DNA of 46,614 nucleotides from an uncultured Chitinophagaceae bacterium (GTDB lineage: Bacteria > Bacteroidota > Bacteroidia > NS11-12g > UBA9320). A program made the translations under genes and the position numbers. Positions 1-26,121 of this stretch are shown piece after piece. Positions within the stretch are counted from its first letter, which is position 1; each line of letters opens with the position of its first letter. The stretch is from positions 1 to 46,614 of the forward strand of contig CAZYJD010000008.1 in the NCBI GenBank assembly GCA_964647785.1, in the 5' to 3' direction. The notes below the pieces were generated by a model. That model saw nothing but the letters and a program-made list of their open reading frames with translations. It ran no database searches and was not told the DNA's origin.

Positions 1-20
1 ATCAAGCTCACCAATATGCA

Positions 21-1415: not shown

Positions 1416-1426
1416 TTAAGAATCAA

Positions 1427-2377: not shown

Positions 2378-2426
2378 GTGCTAAAATTTGTCCGAAAATA
2401 TGGTTTTCATCTGAACTCAAAGCCCC

Positions 2427-7030: not shown

Positions 7031-7114
7031 AAGGCAAAATTAGACAAAAAGCACGGGGGTAACCCACACAAAAACTTTAAACAACCCCCAATTAAGAGGA
7101 AGTTACCTACAGCT

Positions 7115-7807: not shown

Positions 7808-7853
7808 AATGTTATGGCTAAATCGTTGATGTCGTAAAAATAGACAAAAGCCA

Positions 7854-9017: not shown

Positions 9018-9050
9018 AAATAAATGTTTATGTCATTACTTCGCCCCGCC

Positions 9051-9708: not shown

Positions 9709-9720
9709 AACTATTCTTTT

Positions 9721-10512: not shown

Positions 10513-10567
10513 GCTATCATTTTCCTGTTCGTCTATATCGACCTGATCCAAGGGCACGGCAGCGTTC

Positions 10568-11320
10568 TTACATGAGCATTCCTCCACACACACTGATTAC
10601 CTGACCGGTAATGTAGGTGGACTGGTCGGAGGCGAGAAAGAGGCAAAGGGAGGCGACGTCCTCTGGTGTTCCTGCTCTTTTAAGAGGAATGTTCTCCACC
10701 CATCCCTCTACCACTTTTTCATCAAGGGCAGCAGTCATTTCGGTGGCAATAAATCCAGGCGTAACAGCATTGCATCGGATATTTCGGGAACCCAATTCTT
10801 TTGCCATGGATTTAGTAAAACCGATGATTCCTGCTTTCGAAGCTGAATAGTTTGCTTGTCCTGCATTGCCATTCACCCCAACCACTGAAGACATGTTAAT
10901 GATGGAACCTGATTTATTTTTGAGGAACGTACGCAAACAAGCTTTGGTGAGATTAAAAACAGATTTCAGGTTTACTTCTATCACTTCATCCCACTGTTCT
11001 TCAGACATCCTCATGAGAAGATTATCACGGGTAATTCCTGCATTATTGATGAGAACATCGATGGTGCCAAAATCATTTAGAATGGCCTGAACCAAATGTT
11101 CTGACTGTTCGAAGCTTGAAGCATCACTCTGGTACCCCTTGATTTCCGTTTGGTACTTGGATTGAATTTCTGATTCGAACTGTCGTGCTTTTTCAATAGA
11201 GCTTGCAAAGGTGAATGCAATCTTACACCCCTCGGATGCAAAGAGTTCTGCAATGCCTTTTCCAATGCCTCTTGAAGCTCCTGTAATGAGGGCTACTTTT
11301 CCTTCTAATGATTTTGCCAT
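10568..11320 (-). CDS. fabG: 3-oxoacyl-[ACP] reductase-like short-chain dehydrogenase/reductase.
   Basis: GKVALITGASRGIGKGIA Rossmann motif, NNAG, and catalytic S...YSASKAG (YxxxK). The start MAKSLEGKVAL at 11320 is preferred over 11341. A FabG assignment versus another SDR cannot be proven from sequence alone. Confidence 0.75.
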   Translation of the reverse strand: MAKSLEGKVALITGASRGIGKGIAELFASEGCKIAFTFASSIEKARQFESEIQSKYQTEIKGYQSDASSFEQSEHLVQAILNDFGTIDVLINNAGITRDNLLMRMSEEQWDEVIEVNLKSVFNLTKACLRTFLKNKSGSIINMSSVVGVNGNAGQANYSASKAGIIGFTKSMAKELGSRNIRCNAVTPGFIATEMTAALDEKVVEGWVENIPLKRAGTPEDVASLCLFLASDQSTYITGQVISVCGGMLM

Positions 11321-11347
11321 ATGCGCCGTGATCAGGGGCAAAAATAC

Positions 11348-11380
11348 TCAAAAAAAAACCCCGGAAGAGCTTCCGGGGTT
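11348..11380 (-). terminator. Strong intrinsic terminator for the 11401..11943 lipoprotein gene.
   Basis: Perfect 10-bp GC-rich stem aaccccggaa(11357-11366)/ttccggggtt(11371-11380) with a 4-nt loop. On the minus strand it is followed by T9, the complement of A-run 11348-11356. Confidence 0.75.
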
Positions 11381-11400
11381 ACAATGAGATGCTGGTTAAA

Positions 11401-11943
11401 TTATAAATCTTCGATTCTTTTTATTTCGAAAGTTCCATCAGTAACCGTGCCTGAGGCCAATGAGGTTGCTTGCAATTCGCCACCGAAAGTTCCGATGCAT
11501 TTGGCACCGATCTCCCCAAAGGTGGTTACATCAATTGAAATCTCTTCGCGGGGTTTTGGGGCATACTGTGTTTTACGAACACCCTCTCCTACGTTCAACT
11601 CAATATTAGCAGCGCCATTGGCAATTGAATAAGAACCGCTTGAATTTCCGGTGAAAGACATTTCAAGTTCAATGTACTCGCTTTTTTCTTTGGTGCGACC
11701 TTTCAAGATGAAAGTAGTTCTGTTGTCTACAGTCGAGAATTGTGCGTAGCTGGCATTCGTATCCAAAACAACACTTTTCATTTCGCCATTTAATTTAAAC
11801 ACGACTTCAGGTGTTTGAACGTTCGTGTTATTGTCGGTGGTGTCAGCAGGAATCGGTTCGGGATCATCTCCGCAACCAGTACTTACCACGAGGGTAGAGG
11901 CGAAAAATAACGCCAGGGTTGAAAGTAAGAGTAATTTTTTCAT
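11401..11943 (-). CDS. Small beta-rich lipoprotein of unknown function.
   Basis: Signal and lipobox MKKLLLLSTLALFFASTLVVSTGC. No recognisable motifs. Followed by a strong terminator. Confidence 0.6.
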   Translation of the reverse strand: MKKLLLLSTLALFFASTLVVSTGCGDDPEPIPADTTDNNTNVQTPEVVFKLNGEMKSVVLDTNASYAQFSTVDNRTTFILKGRTKEKSEYIELEMSFTGNSSGSYSIANGAANIELNVGEGVRKTQYAPKPREEISIDVTTFGEIGAKCIGTFGGELQATSLASGTVTDGTFEIKRIEDL

Positions 11944-12020
11944 ATCCGTTTTTTGTTTTGCAATTATACAATTCTAATACAAACCCGCTTCATTTTGGTT
12001 GAATCTAAGTCTTTTTACTT

Positions 12021-12707
12021 TCAAATTCCATGCAGGTCTGAGACCCATATTCGCTCCTGATCATATCTAATCAAGGCCGCATCTCCTCCAAGGAGTTCAT
12101 TTTGACCATTGATATGAATGATGGCTGTTCCTTCTTTTAGGCCAATTACAGGCATAGCCGGATGAGCAAGGGTAAATTCTGTTATTCTTTGCAGGCGGGT
12201 TTCGCCTTTGTGGTGCGGCAAACTTTCTTCAGTGTAGTGCGGATTGATCTGATAAGGAAAAAGTCCCAACGCTTCAAAAGAAACGGGCTGCACAATGGGC
12301 ATATCATTGGTGGTATAAATGAATGGACAGGCCACATTTGATCCGGCACTCCAACCAACAAAAGGCAGTCCATTGATCACCGCTTCTTTGATTTTATGCA
12401 TCCAATTTCTTTCCTGCATTTCTTTTAGCAACTGGAAAGTATTTCCTCCTCCCACCGCAATGGCATCAAAACTGTTCAAGTCGGTTTCAGCCGGGTTTAA
12501 GTTTTGGATACCCACCAATTCTAGCCCCATCGGTTCAAAAACCTCAGATACCTTGGTGCAGTAATCCTCCCAGGAAATACTTACGCCTGCAAAGGGCACA
12601 AACAGAACGCGTCCTTTTGCTGCATCAATAAATCCATTGAGCCAGGGCAAGGCATGTGATAAAAAGCCCTGAGAGGTGGTAGAATTACTTAGGAGCAGTA
12701 GCTTCAT
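12021..12707 (-). CDS. pepE: Peptidase E (S51 family alpha-aspartyl dipeptidase).
   Basis: MKLLLLSNSTT...FVPFAG...IAVGGGNTFQLL...GWSAGSNV (catalytic Ser region) follow the PepE pattern. Confidence 0.8.
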   Translation of the reverse strand: MKLLLLSNSTTSQGFLSHALPWLNGFIDAAKGRVLFVPFAGVSISWEDYCTKVSEVFEPMGLELVGIQNLNPAETDLNSFDAIAVGGGNTFQLLKEMQERNWMHKIKEAVINGLPFVGWSAGSNVACPFIYTTNDMPIVQPVSFEALGLFPYQINPHYTEESLPHHKGETRLQRITEFTLAHPAMPVIGLKEGTAIIHINGQNELLGGDAALIRYDQERIWVSDLHGI

Positions 12708-13404
12708 CGCTGTTCTTGATGATATCGAGCAGCTCTACTTCAAAGATTAAAACTGCATTTGGTGGGATGCTTCCATCTCTTGTTCCACTTTCACCATAGG
12801 CCAGTTGAGGTGGAATGAAAAGTTCCCATTTCGACCCCACGGGCATTTTAGTGATTGCCTCTTTCCACCCAGGGATCATCTCACCCAAAACAAATTTGAG
12901 GGGTTCACCTCTTTCAACTGAGCTGTCAAATACTTTTCCGTCGATGAGCATTCCCGTATAATGGGCCAATATTTGATCTTCTTCAGTAGGAATGGGGCCA
13001 TCACCTTGTCTGAGGATGCGGTATTGGGTGCCGCTTTCAAGTGAAACCACGCCTTCCTTGCTTTTATTTGTTTCCAGCCATTGCTTAGCCTTTTCCAAGT
13101 TGGCATTTGCTTCTTCGTTAAAACGATTCATAAAATACTCCTGCATCAAGGTCATTGAAACTTCTTTGGAGATGGCCAAATTTGAATCGTTGGTAAGCAT
13201 GTCTTCAATCCCCTTCCGCAAGGCATCGTAGTTCAGGTCTCCTGCCTTATTTTGTTTGAGGTTTTGGCCCACATTCAATCCAATGGCATAGCTCACACTG
13301 TCCACAGTGTTTTCGAGCGAGCCCAGTTCATTCATTTTTTGGCTGCATGAGGTGGCCATCATCCCAATGGCAGCAGCTACGATAGATAGTGTATAGGTTT
13401 TCAT
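12685..13404 (-). CDS. FKBP-type peptidyl-prolyl cis-trans isomerase lipoprotein (FkpA-like).
   Basis: Lipoprotein signal MKTYTLSIVAAAIGMMATSC. FKBP_N-like helix region, then FKBP core YTGMLIDGKVFDSS...GEMIPGWKEA...IPPQLAYG. Confidence 0.85.
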   Translation of the reverse strand: MKTYTLSIVAAAIGMMATSCSQKMNELGSLENTVDSVSYAIGLNVGQNLKQNKAGDLNYDALRKGIEDMLTNDSNLAISKEVSMTLMQEYFMNRFNEEANANLEKAKQWLETNKSKEGVVSLESGTQYRILRQGDGPIPTEEDQILAHYTGMLIDGKVFDSSVERGEPLKFVLGEMIPGWKEAITKMPVGSKWELFIPPQLAYGESGTRDGSIPPNAVLIFEVELLDIIKNSDEATAPK

Positions 13405-13408
13405 TTAA

Positions 13409-14251
13409 TTATTTGTCGCTTAAAATGAGTGGCAATCCGTCATTATCTCCCAAAACAACGATTTTGGAGTTAGGTGATTCTGATAGCCGAAGGGTTGCCT
13501 CGATGCCTTTTTCTTTGAGAATAAGGGGATTAAGACTGGCACTTAAAATGCGGTTGGCATTGGCCTTTCCTTCAGCTTCAATTCTTTGACGTTCTGCTTC
13601 TTTCTGAGCAATGGCCAGCTTGAATTCGTATTTCTGGTTTTCCTGCTCCTGTTTCAATTTATCTTCAATTGCCGTTTTGATTCGATCAGGCAAAACGATT
13701 GAACGGATGAGTACCTGTTCAATGGTGACATGCTTATTGGTGAGTAATTTTTCCATTTCTGAAAAGATTTCACCTTGGATGCCCTCTCGTTTGGTGCTGT
13801 ATATCTCCAAGGGCGTGTATCTACCAATCACACTTCTGGAAGCAGAACGCAAAGATGGAATAACTACTTTGTCGAGGTAGTTCGGTCCAATTTGATCATG
13901 CAGGTAACCCACTTCATCTGTAAGAGGCCGATACCAGATGGATACATCTGTATTGATTTGAAGACCATCAGAAGAAAGAACGTTCATGGCCTCATTGATT
14001 TCCTGTTGTCTCACATCGTAAATAACCATGCGATTCCAAGGGGCAATGAAATGAAAACCTTCTTTGTAAACCTTTTCTTTGTTAAGCCCTCCTGCAAACT
14101 TCCGGAACAACACTCCCCGTTCTCCCGGCTGGAGCGTGATGGTGATATTGCTCCAAAATATGATGAGAAATATGACCCCCACCACTACAAAAACGATGGG
14201 CAATACTTTTTTGGGATCGGGGCGATCAGTACGGGTGTTATAACTGGACAT
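13409..14251 (-). CDS. SPFH/band-7 (prohibitin/HflC-like) membrane-anchored protein.
   Basis: N-terminal TM (LPIVFVVVGVIFLIIFW), then an SPFH domain pattern and a C-terminal coiled-coil (KLKQEQENQKYEFKLAIAQKEAERQRIEAEGKA). Confidence 0.85.
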   Translation of the reverse strand: MSSYNTRTDRPDPKKVLPIVFVVVGVIFLIIFWSNITITLQPGERGVLFRKFAGGLNKEKVYKEGFHFIAPWNRMVIYDVRQQEINEAMNVLSSDGLQINTDVSIWYRPLTDEVGYLHDQIGPNYLDKVVIPSLRSASRSVIGRYTPLEIYSTKREGIQGEIFSEMEKLLTNKHVTIEQVLIRSIVLPDRIKTAIEDKLKQEQENQKYEFKLAIAQKEAERQRIEAEGKANANRILSASLNPLILKEKGIEATLRLSESPNSKIVVLGDNDGLPLILSDK

Positions 14252-14253
14252 AA

Positions 14254-15858
<1,605 letters not shown>

Positions 15859-15911
15859 CTAAAAATGGGCTGCAATATTAGTGTATTTAAGGGAGAAAGG
15901 CGACCGGTACT

Positions 15912-16565
15912 TCAGGGAGAAAGACGTGATATTTGCCAAGCTGCACTTGGTTGATCTCTTTGAAAGCGAATTCTGTCATGCAATCGATTAGGGCGCCCTT
16001 GCCAAAATTCTATGGTCGAAGGAATGACGGCATAACCTCCCCACCAGCTTGGTCGCGGCACCTCTGTATCAGCGTATTTTGCTTCGAGTTCAGCAAGTCG
16101 TTTATCGAGTAATTCACGGTTATCAATGGGTTGACTTTGTTCAGAGACCCAGGCACCAATTTTACTGCCTTTGGGTCTCGAATTAAAATATGCATCCGAC
16201 TCTTCTGCAGATACTTTCTTTACAACACCTTCAATACGCACCTGACGTTCCAGATCCAACCAATTAAAATTCAAGGCAACTGCCGGGTTTTTCTCCATTT
16301 CCTGTCCTTTGGCTGAATTATAATTGGTATAGAAAATGAAATTTTCATTTTCCAGGCCTTTTAAGAGTACCACTCTGCTTTTGGGAAATGAATCAAGACC
16401 AATGGTTGACAGAACCATCGCGTTGGGTTCTTCTATTTCAGATTTTAGCGCTTCTTCAAACCAATAGCTAAAAAATGCAAATGGATCTTTACCCACGGAC
16501 TCCAAGTCAAGTTTTTCTTTGCTGTAGTTCTTTCTTAGTTGATGAATGTGCTTTAAATCGGTCAT
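15912..16565 (-). CDS. pdxH: Pyridoxamine 5'-phosphate oxidase.
   Basis: LRKNY...DPFAFFSYWFEEA...MVLSTI...PKSRVVLLKG...EFWQGRPNRLHDRIRF follow the PdxH pattern. Length 217 aa. Confidence 0.9.
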   Translation of the reverse strand: MTDLKHIHQLRKNYSKEKLDLESVGKDPFAFFSYWFEEALKSEIEEPNAMVLSTIGLDSFPKSRVVLLKGLENENFIFYTNYNSAKGQEMEKNPAVALNFNWLDLERQVRIEGVVKKVSAEESDAYFNSRPKGSKIGAWVSEQSQPIDNRELLDKRLAELEAKYADTEVPRPSWWGGYAVIPSTIEFWQGRPNRLHDRIRFQRDQPSAAWQISRLSP

Positions 16566-16602
16566 TGGTACAAAAATACATTCACAAAAGAGGAATGCTA
16601 AT

Positions 16603-18764
16603 ACAACAAAAAAGGGAGACCCATGGCCTCCCTTTTCTGATGTGTATGATTTGGTGTATTATTTCGTCACATTGATCTTCCAGCTGCTCCAGCCGCTTTC
16701 TGTTTGCGCCTGTACCAGATAGATACCGCTGCTCAACGCACCCATATCTACTTTCCAGCTACTACCGGTCATTTGTTCGATTACTGCATTCACCTGACGT
16801 CCACTCAAATCGGTGATCTTCAAGCCGGACAATTCGCCCTTGCCTTCTTTCACGTTTACTGTAAACACCCCGTTATTCGGGTTCGGGTAAATATTCAGCA
16901 GATCACTTCTGTTGATGTCGTTCACTCCGGCGATTGCATCTTCGATGTCAATGCTGCCCAGTGAATCCAAACATCCACATCCGTCGGTGGTGTTGATCAA
17001 CAGCTTTACGCGATAGGTGGTGGGTTCGGTGAACACTACCGTAGGCTCTACTTCACGATAAACACCCTGTCCTTCAATCAACCAGGTGTAGGCATCTGAT
17101 CCGTAGCTCTTGTTGGCCGGACTGAACACCCATTCTCTTCCCCAGTTATCTCCTGTGGATGTTTGGGTGTAAGCACAACTTGGGGTTTCGTTGATGGTGA
17201 TGGTTGAACGCGCTGTGTCGCTACATCCGCCTTCAATGCTCGCTACCAATTCTACATTGTAAGTGGTGCTCGTACTTGGGCTATAAACTTTCTTCGGTGA
17301 GTTCTCACTTGAGCTCGTTCCGTCGCCAAAGTTCCAGTTGTAGCTAATGATACCTCCACTGCTGGTGGTTTGGTTTCCGAAGTCTACTATTTCTCCTGAG
17401 CATGCGCCGGCTGCATCAAATGATGCAATTGGCTGAAGTTTTACATCTACCATTTTGCTCACCGTGCTCTGGCAATTGTTGCTCGCATCTACTGTGAGGG
17501 TTACCATGCGCTCACCCAGACCGCTGTACTTATGCTCAGGGTTTTTCTGATCTGAGCTGTTGCCATCGCCAAAGTCCCAGCTGTATACATACAGCAATCC
17601 GCTTGGCTCGGTGGTGGTGTTTGTGAACTGCGTTGGATCTACGTTACATACCTGACCGAAGCTGAAGTCTGCTACTGGACCTGGTGCTATATTTACTGTC
17701 TTGGTGATGCTATCCTGGCAGTTGAACTGGCTAATGGCTACCATCTTAACGCTCTTGGCGCCGCTGGTGGTAAAGGTATAAGCAGGGTTGTTTATGGTTT
17801 CATACTCGCCTGGTTCAAAGGTCCACTTCACCCCCACAAAATCGGTGGTGCTGATCGTGCTATTGTTATTGAACTGGATGGCGGCTCCCTGGCACTGTCC
17901 CTCGAATTCAAATTCAGCTACCGGCTTGGCAAACTGATTTGCATTCTTTGTCAACGTGCTTACACAACCATTGGCTGTTGCGCGAAGGGTTACGCGATAT
18001 CCACCTGGTGTATTGTACTCATGCTCCGGATCTTCCATCGTGCTGGTATTTCCATCACCGAAGTCCCAGCTATAGGTAATCGGTGAGTTGCCTACGATCG
18101 TGGTTTGGTTATCGAACTTAATCTTGGTGCCTTCACAGGCGTTCAACACCTTGAATGAGATATTCGGAATGTGGTTCACTTCTACCGTTACGGTCGTGTC
18201 ATCGCTGAAGCCCAATTCGGTGGTTACCGTCAGTTTTACCGTAAAGGTTCCTGCATTCTTGAACAAATGAACTGGATCGGTAAAGTCGCTGGTTTCTCCA
18301 TCACCGAAATCCCACATATAGGTCATGAATCCTTTCAATACACTTGAGGTGTTGGTAAACTCAGTTACATCGCCCAAGCATACACGGGTTACTTCAAAGT
18401 TCGCCGTTGGGATTGGGGCAATGTAGATATAACGTGTAATGAAGGTGTCGCAGCCATTGGCCAGGTTACGAATGCCGATGGTGGCCATGATGGTGCTATC
18501 TTCCCATCCTACACTCGGTGAATAGGTCAATGTTCCATTGTCTGTTGAGGTTGGATTGGTCGTGCTCAGGTCGCCCGTGGGTATTGGGGTGCCATTTACA
18601 CTGCTGAAATCAATACTGCTGATGGTCCAAGTGGTGCCGAAGCTCGAGTTTGGATTGTTTACCGGTGGCTTCAACTCATAGGTGATGCTGCGGCCTTCCG
18701 TGGTCAAATCCGGATCGTTCTTAGATCCGCGCTTGAAGTAACCGTCGAAGTTGTTGCCTTCAAT
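16603..18764. repeat. Direct repeat copy A (2,162 bp, 100% identical to 20533..22694).
   Basis: Spot-checked at about 12 positions along the tract, all with a constant +3930 offset. Antisense ORFs 16704..16964 and 18088..18270 are duplicated at exactly +3930. Identity ends at 16602/20532 (t vs a) and at 18765/22695. Confidence 0.95.
16606..16632 (-). terminator. Candidate intrinsic terminator 3' of T9SS paralogue 1 (lies inside the duplicated tract).
   Basis: Minus-strand read GGGAGGCCATGGGTCTCCC + TTTTTTGTTGT. The stem is GGGAG/CTCCC (5 bp), followed by T6. Rated modest because of the short stem and 9-nt loop. Confidence 0.4.
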
Positions 18765-20405
18765 AATTTCAGCTTCTTGAAGTAATTCCTTCACCTCTGC
18801 TTCCATGCCAACGCGGCCGGGAGAGTTACAGGTGTAGGTGTATTTCACTCCAACATCTAAAGAATAGGTAGTGTAGGCACCGATGCTAGCAAACATACCA
18901 TTGCAAACAGTTCCTCCTGATATACCTAAGAACTGGTCTTTGGTATTTCTAGTACCGGCATTGAGAATTACATTGTTTGAAAGTGATCCATTTGGAACCA
19001 CCGTAAAGTAAATACTGTAAGTTTTATTTGGTGAAAGCACATAACCATTGAGGTCAATATCCATAACATAAGGACGATTATTATTGGTTGCAACCACATT
19101 ACCTGTACCTTCTGATAGTTTGGTCCAGTCGACAGGATTGGTGGTGAAGAAACCTTCTTTGATGTACAATTCGTAGGGAACATCATTGTTGAAATCCATT
19201 ACAAATTGCAAGGTATCAAGGCTGATCGCAGAGGGTCCTACATCAAATTGAAGGAAACCACCTTCTTCATCTGCTTGATTGGAGACTCTTATCGCAGTTC
19301 CGGTACTCAGTCCATTGGTCAAGTAACTTCTTTCTGCGATACGTATGGCCTCAGCATAGAATGAATCTGTTTCGTAAAGGAATGGACTCTTGGTATTGCT
19401 TCCACGCGCCACAATATTCCCTCCAACCGGAGCATCGTACCAAAAAACATCATCCCGGCTATCAGATGTGGTGGCCTTCAAGTCAACCGTTCCAATACCA
19501 CATCGCTCTGCATCCGCCGGAATAGGATTGCCAGGAACCCCTAAGAAATAAATTGATTTACTTAGGGTATCATCAACATTAATTGTATCTCGAATGCCAT
19601 TAGGCATGGCACTCCAAATCTTAAAGTTGTAGTTGGTGTAAGCACTGAATGTGGTGTTGGTTTCCAAACGAACATCTACAAATGCTCCTGTTCGAAGGGT
19701 GTCTGCCAATCGGTAGTTGCTGCCACTATTCCATTTAACCATTTTAGGTGTCCCGCCATTGATGCTGTAATAAATATCAGCGCTGTCAAGTCGCTTTGTA
19801 CCGCTATTGGAAAGTCTGGCAACAATATCAGAGGGTGTTTCACAGCCAAAGGATGGCTTCACCAAGGCAGAAATTGCCGAGTTCACAGGAGCCGGCAATT
19901 CAAAAATGTCTATTTCCCTGTAGTTCAGATTGCTCTGCTGCCCGGTACCAGGACGCATATCGGTGAGCCTAAGTCGGCTGGTGGTTACCGGAGTAAAGTT
20001 CAAGGTATTTACACAATTGGATTGAGAAAGTGTGAATCTTGCTATATCCCGATAAGTAGATCCATCCCAATATTGCAACTTACATCCGGCAAGAAAACGG
20101 CTGGTGGTTTGGGCGTGATAAATTACCATCTTGTTAATGGTGTGGCTTCTAGACCATACCCATTGGATATAGTCTGTTGATGCCGGAGGATTAGCACTCC
20201 ACACAAAAGCCTGCTGGGTGCCGCAAGTGCCATAATCCTTATCATTAATTCGATTCAAATTCCAGCAACCCAGCGCGGAGGTGGTTTGACAGGTTACGGT
20301 TGCATCGGGTGCAATGTTCTTTTGTTGAGCAAACAATTGTGGACCTCCAAGGATCAGGATTAGCCCAAAAAGCTTGTAGAAATGTGTTAGTAGAACTTTT
20401 TTCAT
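16659..20405 (-). CDS. T9SS-secreted large surface protein, paralogue 1: N-terminal discoidin-like domain, five PKD repeats, C-terminal T9SS sorting domain.
   Basis: 1248 aa. Signal peptide MKKVLLTHFYKLFGLILILGGPQLFAQQ. PKD signatures WDFGDGETS, WDFGDGNTS, WTFEPGEYE, WDFGDGNSS, WNFGDGTSS. The C-terminal LNIYPNPNNGVFTVNV...GIYLVQAQTESGWSSWKINVTK is a type-A T9SS C-terminal domain. Confidence 0.85.
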   Translation of the reverse strand: MKKVLLTHFYKLFGLILILGGPQLFAQQKNIAPDATVTCQTTSALGCWNLNRINDKDYGTCGTQQAFVWSANPPASTDYIQWVWSRSHTINKMVIYHAQTTSRFLAGCKLQYWDGSTYRDIARFTLSQSNCVNTLNFTPVTTSRLRLTDMRPGTGQQSNLNYREIDIFELPAPVNSAISALVKPSFGCETPSDIVARLSNSGTKRLDSADIYYSINGGTPKMVKWNSGSNYRLADTLRTGAFVDVRLETNTTFSAYTNYNFKIWSAMPNGIRDTINVDDTLSKSIYFLGVPGNPIPADAERCGIGTVDLKATTSDSRDDVFWYDAPVGGNIVARGSNTKSPFLYETDSFYAEAIRIAERSYLTNGLSTGTAIRVSNQADEEGGFLQFDVGPSAISLDTLQFVMDFNNDVPYELYIKEGFFTTNPVDWTKLSEGTGNVVATNNNRPYVMDIDLNGYVLSPNKTYSIYFTVVPNGSLSNNVILNAGTRNTKDQFLGISGGTVCNGMFASIGAYTTYSLDVGVKYTYTCNSPGRVGMEAEVKELLQEAEIIEGNNFDGYFKRGSKNDPDLTTEGRSITYELKPPVNNPNSSFGTTWTISSIDFSSVNGTPIPTGDLSTTNPTSTDNGTLTYSPSVGWEDSTIMATIGIRNLANGCDTFITRYIYIAPIPTANFEVTRVCLGDVTEFTNTSSVLKGFMTYMWDFGDGETSDFTDPVHLFKNAGTFTVKLTVTTELGFSDDTTVTVEVNHIPNISFKVLNACEGTKIKFDNQTTIVGNSPITYSWDFGDGNTSTMEDPEHEYNTPGGYRVTLRATANGCVSTLTKNANQFAKPVAEFEFEGQCQGAAIQFNNNSTISTTDFVGVKWTFEPGEYETINNPAYTFTTSGAKSVKMVAISQFNCQDSITKTVNIAPGPVADFSFGQVCNVDPTQFTNTTTEPSGLLYVYSWDFGDGNSSDQKNPEHKYSGLGERMVTLTVDASNNCQSTVSKMVDVKLQPIASFDAAGACSGEIVDFGNQTTSSGGIISYNWNFGDGTSSSENSPKKVYSPSTSTTYNVELVASIEGGCSDTARSTITINETPSCAYTQTSTGDNWGREWVFSPANKSYGSDAYTWLIEGQGVYREVEPTVVFTEPTTYRVKLLINTTDGCGCLDSLGSIDIEDAIAGVNDINRSDLLNIYPNPNNGVFTVNVKEGKGELSGLKITDLSGRQVNAVIEQMTGSSWKVDMGALSSGIYLVQAQTESGWSSWKINVTK

Positions 20406-20532
20406 ATAGATAATATTTGTATTTGCCGAAACTAATAAAGATGTTATCTATGAAGAAATAGTTTTACTACCAATATTTCCACAGCCTTGAAATGGTGGTC
20501 ATGGTACTCTGAAAATGATGTTCAAATGACAA

Positions 20533-22694
20533 ACAACAAAAAAGGGAGACCCATGGCCTCCCTTTTCTGATGTGTATGATTTGGTGTATTATTTCGTCAC
20601 ATTGATCTTCCAGCTGCTCCAGCCGCTTTCTGTTTGCGCCTGTACCAGATAGATACCGCTGCTCAACGCACCCATATCTACTTTCCAGCTACTACCGGTC
20701 ATTTGTTCGATTACTGCATTCACCTGACGTCCACTCAAATCGGTGATCTTCAAGCCGGACAATTCGCCCTTGCCTTCTTTCACGTTTACTGTAAACACCC
20801 CGTTATTCGGGTTCGGGTAAATATTCAGCAGATCACTTCTGTTGATGTCGTTCACTCCGGCGATTGCATCTTCGATGTCAATGCTGCCCAGTGAATCCAA
20901 ACATCCACATCCGTCGGTGGTGTTGATCAACAGCTTTACGCGATAGGTGGTGGGTTCGGTGAACACTACCGTAGGCTCTACTTCACGATAAACACCCTGT
21001 CCTTCAATCAACCAGGTGTAGGCATCTGATCCGTAGCTCTTGTTGGCCGGACTGAACACCCATTCTCTTCCCCAGTTATCTCCTGTGGATGTTTGGGTGT
21101 AAGCACAACTTGGGGTTTCGTTGATGGTGATGGTTGAACGCGCTGTGTCGCTACATCCGCCTTCAATGCTCGCTACCAATTCTACATTGTAAGTGGTGCT
21201 CGTACTTGGGCTATAAACTTTCTTCGGTGAGTTCTCACTTGAGCTCGTTCCGTCGCCAAAGTTCCAGTTGTAGCTAATGATACCTCCACTGCTGGTGGTT
21301 TGGTTTCCGAAGTCTACTATTTCTCCTGAGCATGCGCCGGCTGCATCAAATGATGCAATTGGCTGAAGTTTTACATCTACCATTTTGCTCACCGTGCTCT
21401 GGCAATTGTTGCTCGCATCTACTGTGAGGGTTACCATGCGCTCACCCAGACCGCTGTACTTATGCTCAGGGTTTTTCTGATCTGAGCTGTTGCCATCGCC
21501 AAAGTCCCAGCTGTATACATACAGCAATCCGCTTGGCTCGGTGGTGGTGTTTGTGAACTGCGTTGGATCTACGTTACATACCTGACCGAAGCTGAAGTCT
21601 GCTACTGGACCTGGTGCTATATTTACTGTCTTGGTGATGCTATCCTGGCAGTTGAACTGGCTAATGGCTACCATCTTAACGCTCTTGGCGCCGCTGGTGG
21701 TAAAGGTATAAGCAGGGTTGTTTATGGTTTCATACTCGCCTGGTTCAAAGGTCCACTTCACCCCCACAAAATCGGTGGTGCTGATCGTGCTATTGTTATT
21801 GAACTGGATGGCGGCTCCCTGGCACTGTCCCTCGAATTCAAATTCAGCTACCGGCTTGGCAAACTGATTTGCATTCTTTGTCAACGTGCTTACACAACCA
21901 TTGGCTGTTGCGCGAAGGGTTACGCGATATCCACCTGGTGTATTGTACTCATGCTCCGGATCTTCCATCGTGCTGGTATTTCCATCACCGAAGTCCCAGC
22001 TATAGGTAATCGGTGAGTTGCCTACGATCGTGGTTTGGTTATCGAACTTAATCTTGGTGCCTTCACAGGCGTTCAACACCTTGAATGAGATATTCGGAAT
22101 GTGGTTCACTTCTACCGTTACGGTCGTGTCATCGCTGAAGCCCAATTCGGTGGTTACCGTCAGTTTTACCGTAAAGGTTCCTGCATTCTTGAACAAATGA
22201 ACTGGATCGGTAAAGTCGCTGGTTTCTCCATCACCGAAATCCCACATATAGGTCATGAATCCTTTCAATACACTTGAGGTGTTGGTAAACTCAGTTACAT
22301 CGCCCAAGCATACACGGGTTACTTCAAAGTTCGCCGTTGGGATTGGGGCAATGTAGATATAACGTGTAATGAAGGTGTCGCAGCCATTGGCCAGGTTACG
22401 AATGCCGATGGTGGCCATGATGGTGCTATCTTCCCATCCTACACTCGGTGAATAGGTCAATGTTCCATTGTCTGTTGAGGTTGGATTGGTCGTGCTCAGG
22501 TCGCCCGTGGGTATTGGGGTGCCATTTACACTGCTGAAATCAATACTGCTGATGGTCCAAGTGGTGCCGAAGCTCGAGTTTGGATTGTTTACCGGTGGCT
22601 TCAACTCATAGGTGATGCTGCGGCCTTCCGTGGTCAAATCCGGATCGTTCTTAGATCCGCGCTTGAAGTAACCGTCGAAGTTGTTGCCTTCAAT
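20533..22694. repeat. Direct repeat copy B (2,162 bp, 100% identical to 16603..18764).
   Basis: Same evidence as copy A. It spans 56 bp of 3' UTR and terminator plus the last 2,106 coding nt (701 codons plus stop) of paralogue 2. Confidence 0.95.
20536..20562 (-). terminator. Candidate intrinsic terminator 3' of T9SS paralogue 2 (a duplicate of 16606..16632).
   Basis: Identical sequence to the copy-1 hairpin plus T6, at offset +3930. Confidence 0.4.
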
Positions 22695-24311
22695 CACTGC
22701 TGCTTCTTGCAATTGTTCCTTCACTTTTGCTTCCATCCCTACGCGACCATTGCTCACACAACCGTAGCGGTAGTGTATCCCCATTGAAAGCGCATAGGTG
22801 GTGTAGGCTCCTTGACTTCCGAAGCTTCCGAGGGTTACGGTATTTCCTGAGAATGATAAAAACTCATCTGCGGCATCACGTGTACCCGGGTCAAGCATAA
22901 TGTTATTATCGGTCACCTCAACGTAGATGCTGTAGGTGGTATTTGCCGCAAGAGTGTATCCATCTGCAGGCACTGTGAAGGCCGGCCATGTTCCTGAAGT
23001 ACCATAGGTGGCAACCGTTCCTTCAGACAAGAGGGTCCAATCAACAGGATTGGTGGTAAAAGCCCCTTTCTTGATGTACAGTTTATAAGGTGTGCTGCTT
23101 GCCTGATAGGCCGTGAAAATGAATGAGTCTACGGTAAGGGCTGCCACACCTGTTTTCAATTCCATGAAACCTCCTTCAATATCTGCCGTAGAAGTTGATA
23201 CGATGTAAGAACCACCACCAACAGAATTGGCTAAAAAGAAGGGGGATGAGAAGCGCGCTGCTTCTGCAAAAAATGAATCTGTCTGATATAGGAAGGGGCT
23301 GGTGGCTGTCTGGCCATTGGCTACAATGCTACCGCCTGCAGGGCTGTCATACCAAAGCACTTCATCTTTTGAATTACCCGTTTTGGCTGTCAATTGAACT
23401 GTGCCCACCCCGCATCTTTCAACATCCGATGGAACCGGGTTCGAGGGCGTTCCCAACATATAAATAGATTTACTCAGCGTATCATCTGCATTTACCGTAT
23501 CGGACTTGCCGTTGGGCATGGAGCTCCAAATCTTGAAATCCTGCGTACTGAAGGCAGTGAAAGTCTCGTTGGTGGCAACCGTAACATCAGCAAAAGCACC
23601 TGTTTTGAGGGTGTCGGCTATTTTGAAATTGCTACCGCTGTTCCATTTTACCATTTTAGGGGTACTGCCATTGATGCTGTACCATATATTGGCACTATCC
23701 AATCTTTCAAGACCATTATTTGAAAGTCTAACTACGATATCAGAAGGAGAATCGCAGCCAAATGAAGGTTTAACCAAAGCAGAAATGGACGCATTGAGCG
23801 GTGCAGCCACATCATAAATCTCAATTTCTCTGAAATTCGGATTGCTGTACTGCCCCACATTGGCCATGGTCCAAGTGGTGATACGCATTTTGGTAGCCGT
23901 AAGCGGAGTGAAGTTGATGGTGTTCTCACACTGAACGGTCAAATTACCAAATGAAGCATGTGTCACCCATGCAGATCCGGTCCAACGTTCGATCACGGCA
24001 CCATTCAAGTAACGCCCTGTGGTTTGACCGTGGTAAATAACCATTTTGTTTACGGTAACTGTTTTTCCCCAGTCCCACTCCAAATATGGGTTTCCCCTAC
24101 CGGGAGCCCAGTTGAACCAGGTTTCTTGCGTACCACAAGCTCCGATCACCTTGTTGTTGGTCCCTTCAGGTGGATAGGTTGCATTGGAGAAAACGTTTGT
24201 TGCCAATTTGGCATCGGGTGCGATGTTTTTCTGGGCATTTGCTTCGGCAAAGGGCCATGCGACAATCAAAATTGCCAGCACCGCAGTTAATTGGTAAAAT
24301 TTTTTATTCAT
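20589..24311 (-). CDS. T9SS-secreted large surface protein, paralogue 2. The diverged N-terminal 539 aa are followed by a C-terminal 701 aa identical to paralogue 1.
   Basis: 1240 aa. Signal MNKKFYQLTAVLAILIVAWPFAEANAQ. The N-terminal half is ~50-75% identical to paralogue 1 in blocks (NIAPDA, NKMVIYH, ISALVKPSFGC, MVKWNSGSN). From ...IEGNNFDGYFKRG to the stop it is identical, with the same PKD repeats and C-terminal sorting domain. Confidence 0.85.
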   Translation of the reverse strand: MNKKFYQLTAVLAILIVAWPFAEANAQKNIAPDAKLATNVFSNATYPPEGTNNKVIGACGTQETWFNWAPGRGNPYLEWDWGKTVTVNKMVIYHGQTTGRYLNGAVIERWTGSAWVTHASFGNLTVQCENTINFTPLTATKMRITTWTMANVGQYSNPNFREIEIYDVAAPLNASISALVKPSFGCDSPSDIVVRLSNNGLERLDSANIWYSINGSTPKMVKWNSGSNFKIADTLKTGAFADVTVATNETFTAFSTQDFKIWSSMPNGKSDTVNADDTLSKSIYMLGTPSNPVPSDVERCGVGTVQLTAKTGNSKDEVLWYDSPAGGSIVANGQTATSPFLYQTDSFFAEAARFSSPFFLANSVGGGSYIVSTSTADIEGGFMELKTGVAALTVDSFIFTAYQASSTPYKLYIKKGAFTTNPVDWTLLSEGTVATYGTSGTWPAFTVPADGYTLAANTTYSIYVEVTDNNIMLDPGTRDAADEFLSFSGNTVTLGSFGSQGAYTTYALSMGIHYRYGCVSNGRVGMEAKVKEQLQEAAVIEGNNFDGYFKRGSKNDPDLTTEGRSITYELKPPVNNPNSSFGTTWTISSIDFSSVNGTPIPTGDLSTTNPTSTDNGTLTYSPSVGWEDSTIMATIGIRNLANGCDTFITRYIYIAPIPTANFEVTRVCLGDVTEFTNTSSVLKGFMTYMWDFGDGETSDFTDPVHLFKNAGTFTVKLTVTTELGFSDDTTVTVEVNHIPNISFKVLNACEGTKIKFDNQTTIVGNSPITYSWDFGDGNTSTMEDPEHEYNTPGGYRVTLRATANGCVSTLTKNANQFAKPVAEFEFEGQCQGAAIQFNNNSTISTTDFVGVKWTFEPGEYETINNPAYTFTTSGAKSVKMVAISQFNCQDSITKTVNIAPGPVADFSFGQVCNVDPTQFTNTTTEPSGLLYVYSWDFGDGNSSDQKNPEHKYSGLGERMVTLTVDASNNCQSTVSKMVDVKLQPIASFDAAGACSGEIVDFGNQTTSSGGIISYNWNFGDGTSSSENSPKKVYSPSTSTTYNVELVASIEGGCSDTARSTITINETPSCAYTQTSTGDNWGREWVFSPANKSYGSDAYTWLIEGQGVYREVEPTVVFTEPTTYRVKLLINTTDGCGCLDSLGSIDIEDAIAGVNDINRSDLLNIYPNPNNGVFTVNVKEGKGELSGLKITDLSGRQVNAVIEQMTGSSWKVDMGALSSGIYLVQAQTESGWSSWKINVTK

Positions 24312-24457
24312 TTTAAAGAAATCTTAAGCCTCGAATTTAAGCCTTCTTCATAGTAAAAGAAATATTCTAATCAAAATTGCGTCATACAATTGTCAGAAAG
24401 ACGGATTTAACAGTATCGCAGCTTGCAATTATCAATAAAACCAATAGACAAACCAGA

Positions 24458-25780
24458 TCATCCAAATGGCATTCGAGGCATGCCTCCGCGGCCCTGAAGT
24501 TTGTTCAGGTTCTTCATCATTTTGCGCATGTCTGCAAATTGCTTGAGCAAACGATTCACCTCGGTAACACTGGTTCCACTGCCATCTGCGATTCTTTTCC
24601 TTCTTGAGCCATCGATGAGTTCAGGTGCATTTCTCTCTTGGGGGGTCATGGAGCGAATGATGGCTTCAATACCTTTGAACGCATCATCGGAAACATCTAT
24701 ATCTTTCATGGCCTTCCCTACTCCGGGGATCATGGCCATGAGATCTTTCAGATTGCCCATTTTTTTAATTTGCTGGATCTGATTTAAAAAGTCATCCAGA
24801 TCAAATTGGTTTTTACGCAGTTTTCGCTGCAATTTCTCCGCTTCCTCTTGGTCGTAAGTCTGTTGGGCCTTTTCTACGAGAGAAACAATATCACCCATCC
24901 CCAAAATTCGATTGGCCATTCGATCCGGGTGAAATACATCCAGTGCATTCATTTTCTCCCCTTGACTAACAAATTTTATGGGCTTCTGAACCGTTGATTT
25001 TATTGATAAAGCTGCACCACCTCTGGTATCACCATCCATTTTGGTGAGCACCACCCCATCAAAATTAATTCGATCATTGAAAGCTTTGGCCGTATTCACT
25101 GCATCTTGCCCGGTCATGGCATCCACCACAAAGAGTGTTTCAGCAGGATCGAGTTTACCCTTGAGAAGTGAAATCTCATTCATCATGGTTTCATCGATGC
25201 TCAAACGACCAGCAGTATCGATGATCACCGCGTTGAAACCTTCATTTTTTGCTTTTTGAATGGCTTTTTGGGCGATATCAAGTGGATTGGGATTTCCTTT
25301 TTCAGCAAAAACTTCCACCCCAGTTTGTTCTCCCAAAACACCGATCTGATCAATGGCTGCAGGTCGATATACATCACATGCCACCAGCAGGGGTTTCCGC
25401 CCTTTTTCCTTCAGATGCAAGGCAAGTTTTCCCGAAAATGTTGTTTTACCCGAACCTTGTAAGCCTGCAATCAAAATCACAGCCGGATTAGGCTTAAGAT
25501 TGATATGCGCCGTCTCCCCTCCCAGCAATTTCACCAATTCATCGTTAACGATTTTTGTCATTAATTGGCCGGGGGAAACGCTCTTAATCACATTTGCTCC
25601 AAGAGCTCTTTCTTTGACTTCATTGGTAAAGTCTTTAGCAATCTTGTAGCTTACGTCTGCATCCACCAACGCCCTGCGAATTTCTTTGACGGTTTCGGCG
25701 ATATTGATTTCTGAAATCCTTCCTTGCCCTTTTAGGGTTTTGAAGGCTTTTTCCAGTCGGTCGGATAAATTTTCGAACAT
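24458..25780 (-). CDS. ffh: Signal recognition particle protein Ffh.
   Basis: Canonical N-terminus MFENLSDRLEKAFKTLKG (internal Met; cat at 25778-25780). GTPase motifs GLQGSGKTT, DTAGR, TKMDGD. The Met-rich M-domain ends ...RGGMPRMPFG. The ORF track's 23-codon N-terminal extension was rejected. Confidence 0.97.
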   Translation of the reverse strand: MFENLSDRLEKAFKTLKGQGRISEINIAETVKEIRRALVDADVSYKIAKDFTNEVKERALGANVIKSVSPGQLMTKIVNDELVKLLGGETAHINLKPNPAVILIAGLQGSGKTTFSGKLALHLKEKGRKPLLVACDVYRPAAIDQIGVLGEQTGVEVFAEKGNPNPLDIAQKAIQKAKNEGFNAVIIDTAGRLSIDETMMNEISLLKGKLDPAETLFVVDAMTGQDAVNTAKAFNDRINFDGVVLTKMDGDTRGGAALSIKSTVQKPIKFVSQGEKMNALDVFHPDRMANRILGMGDIVSLVEKAQQTYDQEEAEKLQRKLRKNQFDLDDFLNQIQQIKKMGNLKDLMAMIPGVGKAMKDIDVSDDAFKGIEAIIRSMTPQERNAPELIDGSRRKRIADGSGTSVTEVNRLLKQFADMRKMMKNLNKLQGRGGMPRMPFG

Positions 25781-26121
25781 AGCTTTAAAAAGGTTGGCAA
25801 ATTTAGTGCATTCAACCCGAGCCTTCAAGTGCAATGAACAATAGGCCATCTGCTTTTACCCCATAAGATCAAACTACAGGTGAACTCTCTCAGGCATCAT
25901 CACAGCGTGGGAGCGCAAGCCTTTTGATAACATTCTAAATCTTTACTACCTTGATTCAGTACATCAAAAGAAGCATTTGATCCATCTACTTTGGGTCTGT
26001 GCAATCCCAGCGCAATGAGCAGCCGAACACATCATCTTCGTCAAGCTTTCTTTGAACGTTGAATGTAAATGAGGGTCGGTTCAAGATCATGTCCTTTTTT
26101 TTAGTTTTTTTTGCCCCCAAT

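What the first reader, a model, noticed from the sequence alone, without database searches (positions are those of the whole stretch)
16603..22694. Two tandem T9SS adhesin-like genes share a 2,162-bp perfectly identical 3' tract
Positions 16603..18764 and 20533..22694 are identical base for base at a constant offset of 3930 bp. The tract covers the last 701 codons of both ~1,240-aa genes (five PKD repeats plus the T9SS C-terminal sorting domain) and 56 bp of 3' UTR including the terminator hairpin. The 5' ~1.6 kb of each gene is clearly diverged (patchy ~50-75% amino-acid identity). An old duplication would not leave zero synonymous differences across 2.1 kb, so the tract has most likely been homogenised very recently by gene conversion or non-allelic recombination. 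The result is two surface proteins with different N-terminal putative binding heads on an identical stalk and anchor. That looks like a cassette-style system for varying surface-protein heads and is a hotspot for deletion or expansion by unequal crossover.
Basis: seen in the sequence. Interest (0 to 1): 0.78.

Follow-up and report, generated by a model that had tools for sequence, protein, structure and literature searches.

The report
Twin surface-protein genes sharing homogenised tails
Two neighbouring genes for secreted surface proteins keep different sugar-binding-like heads, while recombination between the copies repeatedly makes their 2.1-kb stalk-and-anchor ends identical; this is a clear new example of a well-known process.

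Summary
Window 16603..18764 equals 20533..22694 base for base (2,162 bp). On the minus strand this covers the last 701 codons, the stop and 56 bp with the terminator of two tandem genes. Gene A is 16659..20405 and gene B is 20589..24311; they lie between ffh and pdxH.

The heads are 52% identical in protein and saturated at synonymous sites. The tails have no differences.

The syntenic locus of a related species (L027, about 75% nucleotide identity) decides the mechanism. Head A groups with its orthologue (75.6% aa), but the tails group by genome: 100% identical in the window and 96.5% in L027, against 70-80% between species. This is concerted evolution, so the duplication is old and the tails are repeatedly homogenised. 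A distant relative (L017) shows the same pattern, with almost the same 5' boundary in the head-stalk linker.

Metagenome contigs break exactly at the repeat edges. Two contigs carry a hybrid junction joining the gene B signal peptide to head A.

Caveat: short-read assemblers can write one collapsed repeat twice, so exact identity and copy number need long reads.

Nothing indicates a programmed cassette system: no recombinase, silent copies or inverted repeats were found. I file it as a new member of a known kind, of moderate interest.

The parts
20589..24311 (-). Gene B: 1240-aa T9SS cargo protein. Order of parts: signal peptide, CBM32/discoidin-like domain, Ig-like domains, second beta-sandwich, linker, 5 PKD domains plus one PKD-like domain, type A C-terminal sorting domain.
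   Evidence: ORF list and translation. Pfam PKD_4 x5 and Por_Secre_tail at 45.9 bits against a cut-off of 27. TIGR04183 at 38.8 bits against a cut-off of 23.
16659..20405 (-). Gene A: 1248-aa paralogue with the same architecture, directly downstream of gene B on the same strand.
   Evidence: The head model has mean pLDDT 80.6 and four beta domains. Foldseek matches CBM32 / F5-8 type C folds with TMt 0.63-0.78.
22695..24311 (-). Head B (539 codons), the diverged part of gene B.
   Evidence: 52% aa identity to head A. pS 0.78 and dN 0.43 against head A.
18765..20405 (-). Head A (547 codons), the diverged part of gene A. It is orthologous to the head of P0047 (gene A' in L027).
   Evidence: 75.6% aa identity to the L027 A' head, against 51.6% to head B.
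20533..22694 (-). Repeat copy R_B: linker, stalk (PKD domains), sorting domain, stop codon and 56-bp 3' UTR of gene B.
   Evidence: Identical to 16603..18764. Logan contigs L004, L011 and L012 stop at 22665 and L007 at 22666, about 30 nt (k-1) inside the 5' edge.
16603..18764 (-). Repeat copy R_A: the same 2,162 bp at the end of gene A.
   Evidence: L028 starts at 16632 (30 nt inside the 3' edge) and JGI contig L015 starts at 16729 (127 nt inside).
20537..20569 (-). Intrinsic terminator hairpin of gene B (15-bp stem, then a T-run), inside the repeat.
   Evidence: Terminator scan and alignment.
16607..16639 (-). Intrinsic terminator hairpin of gene A, identical to that of gene B. The repeat ends 4 nt after the T-run region.
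20406..20532 (-). Unique spacer between the end of repeat copy R_B and the start codon of gene A. It presumably holds gene A's promoter.
   Evidence: Alignments. It has no similarity to the region upstream of gene B.
24211..24233 (-). Conserved 23-nt motif (codons for QKNIAPDA) just after the signal peptide of gene B. It is the crossover site of the hybrid junction seen in metagenome contigs.
   Evidence: Repeat family D5, 87% identical to 20302..20324. L008 and L010 switch from gene B sequence to gene A sequence here.
20302..20324 (-). Partner copy of the 23-nt motif, in gene A.
24458..25849 (-). ffh (SRP54), the upstream flank. It anchors synteny with L027 and with contigs from other samples.
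   Evidence: Pfam SRP54, SRP_SPB and SRP54_N. Synteny.
15912..16565 (-). pdxH, the downstream flank and second synteny anchor.
   Evidence: Pfam PNPOx_N and PNP_phzG_C. Synteny.

Best explanation
Genes A and B are old tandem duplicates. They encode type IX secretion (T9SS) surface proteins with CBM32/discoidin-like, probably glycan-binding, heads on a PKD-domain stalk and a type A C-terminal sorting domain.

Ordinary homologous recombination between the two directly repeated copies keeps overwriting one 3' end with the other. This could be non-reciprocal gene conversion during repair, or cycles of unequal sister-strand exchange. The linker, stalk, sorting domain and terminator (2.1 kb) therefore evolve in concert.

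The heads escape. They are now too diverged (about 50% nucleotide identity) to support strand exchange, and presumably selection keeps two binding specificities. The tract is thus bounded on one side by the head-stalk linker. On the other side it is bounded by the point just after the terminator, where the downstream sequences become unrelated.

Shown here: the repeat, the mosaic divergence, tails grouping by genome while head A groups by orthologue, the same boundaries in other lineages, and a natural hybrid junction.

Inferred: the enzymology (a RecA-type pathway), the direction and timing of events, selection on the heads, and glycan binding.
For: (1) The exact 2,162-bp repeat spans the last 701 codons, the stop and the terminator.

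(2) In the heads pS = 0.78 (saturated) and dN = 0.43. In the tail there are 0 differences over 456 synonymous and 1,647 non-synonymous sites.

(3) The syntenic locus L027 (ffh-B'-A'-pdxH-ABC-F-Band_7) is about 75% identical in nucleotides to the window. Head A is 75.6% aa identical to head A', against 51.6% to head B. The tails are 100% identical in the window and 96.5% in L027, but only 70-80% nt (83-85% aa) between species. The head tree is ((A,A'),(B,B')) and the tail tree is ((A,B),(A',B')).

(4) L027's two tails are distinguishable: 79 mismatches in the 2,312-bp BLAST match, 52 of them inside the homogenised tract, in clusters. They are therefore two real copies, and the patchy pattern fits repeated conversion tracts.

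(5) Between species the tail evolves as fast as the heads (45.5% aa against 42-44% versus L002). Purifying selection therefore cannot explain the identity.

(6) There is an independent case in a distant relative. L017 is about 30% aa identical and has two tandem genes. A perfect 2,186-bp tail repeat starts within about 10 codons of the homologous position, and the heads are diverged, with unrelated N-terminal domains.

(7) In L027 the tract starts about 60 nt upstream of the window's boundary and ends just after the terminator T-run, as in the window. In the head model the boundary (residue 548) falls in a low-confidence linker after the last strand, residues 532-539.

(8) Independent datasets of the same species break exactly at the repeat edges. 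An ENA scaffold reproduces the order head B-R-spacer-head A-R-pdxH.

(9) A hybrid junction between the gene B signal peptide and head A occurs in two samples, and two further samples branch at that site.
Against: Perfect identity may be produced by the assembler. In a de Bruijn graph the two tails collapse into one node that is written twice when the loop is traversed.

For the same reason the ENA strain carries little weight at strain level. Its two copies are again identical to each other, and both differ from the window's repeat at the same six synonymous sites, but this is not independent evidence of concerted evolution.

Orthology of the B heads is weak: 56.2% aa between B and B', against 57.2% between B' and the A heads. 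The argument rests on head A.

No conversion event has been observed directly, and no recombination genes were examined.

Some pdxH-side contigs (L029-L031) cross the 3' repeat edge without a branch. A simple two-copy structure with identical tails does not predict this.
Confidence: 0.8

Rival explanations
1. Assembly artefact. Either only one gene copy exists, or the two tails are real but noticeably different, and a short-read graph assembler collapsed them and wrote the consensus twice.
For: The window is a single 46.6-kb contig of unknown technology. Other short-read assemblies of the same species break at the repeat edges. The ENA scaffold's two copies are again identical to each other, as loop traversal would produce. 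A JGI contig reads head A-R-spacer, which looks like an arbitrary walk through the loop.
Against: A single copy is excluded by the graph topology. The repeat has two different left flanks and two different right flanks in several independent samples. The junction from the repeat's end into the spacer and head A is read directly. The related species L027 has both copies resolved at 96.5% identity in the same order. A few hidden differences between the window's copies cannot be excluded, but the tails would still be far more alike than the heads.
Confidence: 0.07
2. A recent whole-gene tandem duplication, after which one head was replaced by a diverged allele imported from another organism. No tail homogenisation was involved.
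For: Imported patches do occur at this locus. There is a 225-bp stretch with 36 mostly synonymous differences in head A between two strains, and it is not derived from head B. In L017 the two N-terminal domains are unrelated, so head modules have been exchanged at some time.
Against: Both genes sit in the same order between ffh and pdxH in a species about 25% diverged in nucleotides, and head A is clearly orthologous there. The pair therefore predates the species split, yet the tails group by genome in both species. Independent recent duplication plus head import at the same site in both lineages is much less parsimonious.
Confidence: 0.05
3. A dedicated, programmed variation system that switches heads on one expression site, with cassettes or a site-specific recombinase, as in pilE/pilS, vlsE or shufflons.
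For: It has a shared stalk with alternative heads. Hybrid and possibly deleted or expanded haplotypes occur in natural samples. The architecture recurs in the family.
Against: Both genes are complete, each with its own start codon, signal peptide and terminator. No inverted repeats occur in 15800..24700. The six neighbouring genes scanned are ffh, pdxH, an ABC-F ATPase, a Band_7 protein, a TPR protein and a peptidase-like gene, with no recombinase among them. Family members also occur as single genes.
Confidence: 0.04
4. Strong purifying selection on the stalk and anchor alone keeps the tails identical.
For: The six differences between the two strains' repeats are all synonymous. The stalk and sorting domain are functionally constrained modules.
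Against: There are no synonymous differences over 456 synonymous sites, and the 56-bp untranslated end is also identical. The same tail is only 70-80% identical in nucleotides between species and 45% aa identical to the next relative, so it diverges as fast as the heads.
Confidence: 0.01

Closest known systems
Leptospira ligA / ligB
   Same: Two paralogous surface adhesins are built of Ig-like domains. A roughly 2.1-kb stretch is nearly identical between them, and it includes non-coding sequence: from -266 nt upstream to +1890 in strain Fiocruz L1-130. The rest of each protein is unique, and recombination among lig genes is documented (PMC7821625).
   Different: It is the mirror image of this case: the shared part is the 5' end with the promoter, not the 3' end with the terminator. 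The genes are not adjacent tandem copies. The organism is a spirochaete and the proteins are lipoproteins, not T9SS cargo.
Bartonella quintana vomp array (trimeric autotransporter adhesins)
   Same: Tandemly arranged adhesin paralogues have conserved and variable regions. Natural and in-host variants arise by deletion of array members (PMC10936683, citing Zhang et al. 2004).
   Different: Secretion is type Vc rather than T9SS. The conserved probe region cited is at the 5' end. Immune evasion in a mammalian host is the accepted driver. The ecology here is unknown; the related sequences come from public metagenome assemblies whose sample types were not examined.
Porphyromonas gingivalis hagA / rgpA / kgp adhesin regions
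   Same: [quoted passage not shown] The repeats could not be resolved by automated short-read assembly, and their diversity is ascribed to domain rearrangement and recombination (PMC5266723).
   Different: The genes are dispersed, not tandem. The shared modules are haemagglutinin/cleaved adhesin domains rather than a PKD stalk, sorting domain and terminator. The heads are proteases.
Helicobacter pylori babA / babB
   Same: Outer-membrane adhesin paralogues have near-identical ends and a diverged ligand-binding middle. Gene conversion between them has been observed during infection.
   Different: The loci are dispersed, both ends are shared, and the protein family and secretion route are different.
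Concerted evolution of bacterial duplicate genes in general, for example tufA/tufB and rRNA operons (own knowledge)
   Same: RecA-dependent gene conversion keeps paralogues identical within a genome while they diverge between species.
   Different: Those cases homogenise the whole gene. Here only one module is homogenised, and the boundary at the head-stalk linker recurs in three lineages.

Membership tests
T9SS type A cargo protein | C-terminal sorting domain (Por_Secre_tail / TIGR04183) above the curated cut-off | tested here: met
   Pfam PF18962 scores 46.2 and 45.9 bits against a cut-off of 27. TIGR04183 scores 40.3 and 38.8 bits against a cut-off of 23.
T9SS type A cargo protein | N-terminal Sec signal peptide | tested here: inconclusive
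   Both proteins start with a basic residue stretch, a hydrophobic stretch and an A-x-A/Q-like end (MKKVLL...LFAQQ; MNKKFY...EANAQ). The model has a helix at residues 4-19. No dedicated signal-peptide predictor was available.
T9SS type A cargo protein | T9SS machinery in the same genome, and demonstrated secretion | not testable with these tools
   Only 46.6 kb of the genome is available. A second Por_Secre_tail protein lies at 35157..37862. A family member in another genome sits next to PorV, PorU-like and PorP/SprF genes.
Interlocus gene conversion / concerted evolution | A tract far more similar between paralogues than the rest of the genes, including silent and non-coding sites | tested here: met
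   0 of 2,162 nt differ, including 456 synonymous sites and the 56-bp UTR. The heads have pS 0.78.
Interlocus gene conversion / concerted evolution | Phylogenetic incongruence: the tract groups by genome while the flanking part groups by orthologue | tested here: met
   Window against syntenic L027: the head tree is ((A,A'),(B,B')) and the tail tree is ((A,B),(A',B')). The B-B' grouping is weak; the A-A' grouping is strong.
Interlocus gene conversion / concerted evolution | Recombinant molecules between the paralogues observed directly | tested here: inconclusive
   A hybrid junction between the gene B signal peptide and head A is present in contigs from two samples, and two more samples branch there. 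The full structure of those molecules is unknown.
Interlocus gene conversion / concerted evolution | Dependence on homologous recombination functions (RecA pathway) | not testable with these tools
   This needs genetics in a cultured representative.
Programmed antigenic or phase variation system (silent cassettes or invertible shufflon) | Promoterless or truncated silent donor cassettes feeding one expression site | tested here: not met
   Both genes are full-length ORFs, each with a start codon, a signal peptide and its own terminator.
Programmed antigenic or phase variation system (silent cassettes or invertible shufflon) | Site-specific recombinase and inverted repeat sites at the locus | tested here: not met
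   No inverted repeats of 20 nt or more occur in 15800..24700. The six flanking genes scanned look like housekeeping genes.
CBM32 / F5-8 type C (discoidin-like) glycan-binding module in the head | Sequence match above the family threshold | tested here: not met
   PF22633 scores 22.5 and 25.3 bits, below the cut-off of 27.8. DUF7402 scores 21.6 bits, below 27.
CBM32 / F5-8 type C (discoidin-like) glycan-binding module in the head | The fold | tested here: met
   In the AlphaFold model (pLDDT 80.6) the head matches solved CBM32 modules: 2v72 with TMt 0.78 and rmsd 3.4 A, and 7blg, 4a44 and 2j1a with TMt 0.66-0.70. Ligand binding itself was not tested.

The most novel reading that the evidence does not exclude
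The shared stalk may be more than a passive by-product. It could act as a built-in recombination handle that makes this T9SS adhesin locus a contingency locus in natural populations. Exchange within the 2.1-kb tail, and occasionally at the conserved 23-nt motif after the signal peptide, would continually produce single-gene, hybrid-head and expanded-array variants. Populations could then change which glycan-binding head, and how many copies of it, they display. The recurrence of the same head-stalk boundary in three lineages would then reflect selection for this modular design.
Probability: 0.15. Interest if true: 0.6.

Novelty: new member of a known kind. Interest (0 to 1): 0.4.

Why it matters
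It gives a clean, comparatively tested case of module-limited concerted evolution in T9SS surface proteins of little-studied Bacteroidota known so far mainly from metagenome assemblies. The binding heads diverge freely, while the stalk, sorting signal and terminator are kept uniform by recombination.

In practice, such loci are mis-assembled or broken in short-read metagenomes: nearly every independent contig examined here ends at the repeat edge. Copy number, head repertoire and strain variation of these adhesins will therefore be under-counted.

The locus also offers a natural system for measuring conversion tract boundaries and unequal-exchange products with long-read metagenomics. It does not reveal a new mechanism.

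Tried and rejected
- Exact look-up of gene A and gene B products found nothing. The window's gene A was later found in the collection as P0199, on a 46,614-bp NCBI contig.
- The scan of species-representative genomes gave only one distant, truncated locus (L001, 44%). The organism's own species is not usefully represented there.
- The word-index protein search with head A returned only two hits and missed known close relatives.
- I tested whether the clustered strain differences in head A came from head B, as a head-to-head conversion. They did not: 9 sites match B, 8 are sites where the window's head A already matches B, and the rest match neither.
Truncated products of head A, head B and the repeat are not in the collection. 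I therefore could not retrieve the head A and repeat-only contigs from the samples with the hybrid junction.
- There is no exact match to the Bacteroidota -7 promoter motif TAnnTTTG upstream of either gene, and sigma-70-like hits are below the chance expectation. Promoters remain unassigned.
- DNA similarity among the internal PKD repeats is limited to the WDFGDG motif (39 nt, 64-85%). Intragenic repeat slippage is not the source of the pattern.
- Three further family members were looked up to gauge generality. Two are single-copy and one contig holds only the gene, with no terminal overlap. The tandem homogenised state is recurrent but not universal.
- The other T9SS protein in the window (35157..37862) is unrelated except for weak PKD similarity.
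Full report
**1. The observation**

A direct comparison shows that window 16603..18764 and 20533..22694 are identical over 2,162 bp at an offset of 3930. The match cannot be extended by a single base on either side.

Both genes are on the minus strand. Gene A is 16659..20405 (1248 aa) and gene B is 20589..24311 (1240 aa). They are separated by 183 bp and lie between ffh (24458..25849) and pdxH (15912..16565).

Read in the direction of the genes, the tract begins exactly at a codon boundary (codon 548 of A, codon 540 of B). It runs through 701 codons and the stop, and ends 56 bp later, just after a strong terminator hairpin with its T-run.

Pfam finds five PKD_4 stretches, a weaker PKD-like stretch and a Por_Secre_tail domain above threshold. 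NCBIfam TIGR04183 (T9SS type A sorting domain) is also above its cut-off.

The heads are 52% identical in protein.

**2. How different are heads and tails?**

On a codon alignment the heads have a proportion of synonymous differences of 0.78, which is saturated, and dN is 0.43. The tail has no difference at 456 synonymous and 1,647 non-synonymous sites.

The untranslated 56 bp are identical too. Purifying selection cannot produce this. Against the next relative (L002) the tail is 45.5% identical in protein and the heads 42-44%, so the tail diverges between species as fast as the heads.

**3. Is the structure real?**

The window is a complete 46,614-bp NCBI contig. Neighbouring proteins occur with identical sequence in a dozen other assemblies.

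Contigs anchored on ffh from four other sequencing runs stop at window 22665 or 22666. That is about 30 nt (k-1 for k = 31) inside the 5' edge of the repeat. A contig anchored on pdxH starts 30 nt inside the 3' edge, and a JGI contig starts 127 nt inside it.

This is the expected signature of a repeat with two different left flanks and two different right flanks.

An ENA scaffold (L014, 215 kb) reads 60 nt of head B, then the repeat, the spacer, head A, the repeat and pdxH. This is the same order as in the window. A single-copy or mis-joined assembly is therefore excluded.

What cannot be excluded is that the exact identity is made by the assembler. In a de Bruijn graph two near-identical tails collapse into one node, and that node is written twice when the loop is traversed.

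The same applies to the ENA scaffold. Its two copies are identical to each other, and both differ from the window's repeat at the same six synonymous positions. This looks like concerted evolution at strain level, but it is not independent evidence. The copy number of the spacer-head A-repeat unit is also not fixed by graph topology.

**4. The decisive comparison**

A profile search with the heads found P0047, a close relative of gene A. Its contig, L027 (JGI, 13.5 kb), is the syntenic locus of a related species: ffh, B', A', pdxH, ABC-F, Band_7. It is about 75% identical in nucleotides to the window in the housekeeping flanks.

| Comparison | Heads | Tails |
|---|---|---|
| A vs A' (between species) | 75.6% aa | 83-85% aa, 70-80% nt |
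| A vs B (within the window) | 51.6% aa | 100% nt |
| A' vs B' (within L027) | 57.2% aa | 96.5% nt |
| Tree | ((A,A'),(B,B')) | ((A,B),(A',B')) |

The duplication therefore predates the split of the two species. Since then the tails have been homogenised separately in each lineage. This is the textbook test for concerted evolution.

The B-B' grouping is weak (56.2%), so the argument rests on head A.

L027's two tails are distinguishable. There are 79 mismatches in the 2,312-bp BLAST match, and 52 of them lie inside the homogenised tract, clustered in patches between perfectly identical stretches. They are therefore two physical copies, and the patchiness fits repeated conversion tracts of limited length.

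**5. Recurrence and boundaries**

In L027 the homogenised tract begins about 60 nt upstream of the window's boundary. It ends just after the terminator T-run, as in the window.

A distant family member shows the same pattern. L017 is about 30% aa identical and lies on a 162-kb JGI contig. It has two tandem genes of 1272 and 1239 aa with a perfect 2,186-bp tail repeat. The repeat starts within about 10 codons of the homologous position. The mid-head regions are diverged, and the N-terminal domains show no BLASTP similarity.

Another relative (L002) carries at least 3.5 whole units of 3,877 bp at the end of a 1.16-Mb contig. The well-resolved units are about 99% identical to one another, and the copy at the contig end is noisier.

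A fourth locus (L016) has three tandem T9SS genes whose tails are only 43% identical. Other members are single-copy. Homogenised tandem copies are thus recurrent in this family but not universal.

An AlphaFold model of head A (mean pLDDT 80.6) has four beta domains. The last strand ends at residue 539, and residues 541-567 are a low-confidence linker. The repeat starts at residue 548, so the boundary lies at the head-stalk junction.

The head matches solved CBM32 / F5-8 type C carbohydrate-binding modules (TMt 0.63-0.78). The Pfam sequence match is below threshold. 'Glycan-binding head' is therefore a reading at the level of the fold only.

**6. Recombination seen in natural populations**

Two contigs, L008 and L010, come from two sequencing runs. 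Each carries ffh, the upstream spacer and the signal peptide of gene B. Thirty nucleotides identical to head A follow directly.

The switch lies in a conserved 23-nt motif that encodes QKNIAPDA (window 24211..24233 and 20302..20324). Two further runs branch at that point. The molecule is either a deletion product (a single hybrid gene) or a head conversion from A into B. The contigs are too short to tell which.

Three contigs on the pdxH side cross the 3' repeat edge without a branch. One JGI contig reads head A, the repeat, then the spacer that precedes head A. These observations fit deletion and expansion haplotypes, or graph pruning and arbitrary walks through the loop. I leave them unresolved.

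Separately, head A differs between two strains by 36 mostly synonymous changes packed into 225 bp (window 19992..20217). These do not come from head B, so the patch is an imported allele.

**7. Mechanism**

The best-supported account has four parts:
- an old tandem duplication;
- divergence of the heads;
- repeated homologous recombination between the direct repeats, by gene conversion or by cycles of unequal exchange;
- a homogenised segment running from the linker to the terminator.

The 3' boundary is where the downstream sequences become unrelated. The 5' boundary is where the heads become too diverged for strand exchange. Why the heads diverged in the first place is inferred, not shown; selection for different ligands and module replacement, as in L017, are both possible.

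Nothing indicates a dedicated system. Both genes are complete, there are no inverted repeats, and no recombinase is found among the six neighbouring genes scanned.

**8. Comparison with known cases**

Partial homogenisation of adhesin paralogues is well known.
- Leptospira ligA and ligB share a near-identical stretch from -266 to +1890 (PMC7821625).
- The Bartonella quintana vomp genes form a tandem array that loses members in vivo (PMC10936683).
- The P. gingivalis T9SS cargo genes hagA, rgpA and kgp share identical repeats that defeat short-read assembly (PMC5266723).

The present case is new in three respects. It lies in a family known so far only from poorly characterised Bacteroidota. The homogenised module is the 3' stalk, sorting domain and terminator. 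The same boundary recurs in three lineages.

It is a new member of a known kind.

**9. Verdict**

The gene-conversion reading is supported, with about 0.8 confidence. The 'cassette system' reading is not supported as a programmed mechanism. Exact identity and copy number await long reads. Interest is moderate (0.4).

Noticed in passing
window 19992..20217 (head A, minus strand): Against the ENA strain (L014), 36 of the 40 head A differences fall in this 225-bp stretch (about 16% divergence, against about 0.1-0.3% elsewhere). Almost all are synonymous and they are not derived from head B. It looks like a short allele imported by homologous recombination from a diverged lineage.
   Followed up: yes
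L008 and L010 (Logan SRR33375187, SRR33375158), last ~40 nt; window 24211..24233 and 20302..20324: There is a hybrid junction. The signal peptide of gene B continues into head A sequence, with the crossover inside the conserved QKNIAPDA motif. L009 and L013 stop at the same point, as at a branch. The molecule is either a single-gene deletion product or a conversion of head B by head A.
   Followed up: partly
L029, L030, L031 (Logan SRR29965068, DRR337554, ERR4674194): Contigs run from pdxH across the 3' edge of the repeat and 375-1,956 nt into it without breaking. Two identical tail copies with different downstream flanks would not predict this. It hints at single-copy haplotypes or pruned minor branches. 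DRR337554 also yields a contig that does stop at the 5' edge.
   Followed up: partly
L032 (JGI 3300047562, 2,517 bp): The contig reads 253 nt of head A, the full repeat, then 102 nt of the spacer that normally precedes head A. This is either an arbitrary walk round the assembly loop or evidence for two or more copies of the A unit. Its repeat differs from the window's by more than the other strains' repeats do (29 mismatches in 2,415 nt).
   Followed up: partly
L002 (GCA_963852545.1, end of a 1.16-Mb contig), 1..13793: There are at least 3.5 tandem whole-gene units of 3,877 bp. The well-resolved units are about 99% identical, heads included. The last copy, at the contig end, is full of indels and is split into small ORFs. 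This looks like an array expansion that ended the contig.
   Followed up: partly
L017 13825..17544 compared with 9875..13693: The second gene of this pair has a different N-terminal domain of about 165 aa (no BLASTP similarity) in place of the discoidin-like domain. The profile search also splits the family into members that match from residue ~10 and members that match only from ~130-175. The outermost head module therefore appears to have been swapped during evolution.
   Followed up: partly
L027 4208..4214: Gene B' of the related species is split into ORFs of 1135 and 114 aa by a frameshift shortly before the sorting domain. This is either a sequencing error or a recently inactivated copy.
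   Followed up: no
L016 1700..13699: Three tandem T9SS genes (1362, 1369 and 1246 aa). The tails of the first and third are only 43% identical and there is no nucleotide repeat. This is an example of the non-homogenised state in the same family.
   Followed up: partly
window 35157..37862 (+): A further 901-aa protein has a Por_Secre_tail and, per the precomputed Pfam annotations of its copies in other assemblies, Ig_7 and PKD domains. It has an unrelated N-terminal region, so the window carries a third T9SS cargo gene.
   Followed up: partly
fold search of the head A model: Among the weaker structural matches are fragments of GhpA, the grappling-hook protein of Aureispira (9g8b, 9flp), with low TM scores. 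I made nothing of it.
   Followed up: no
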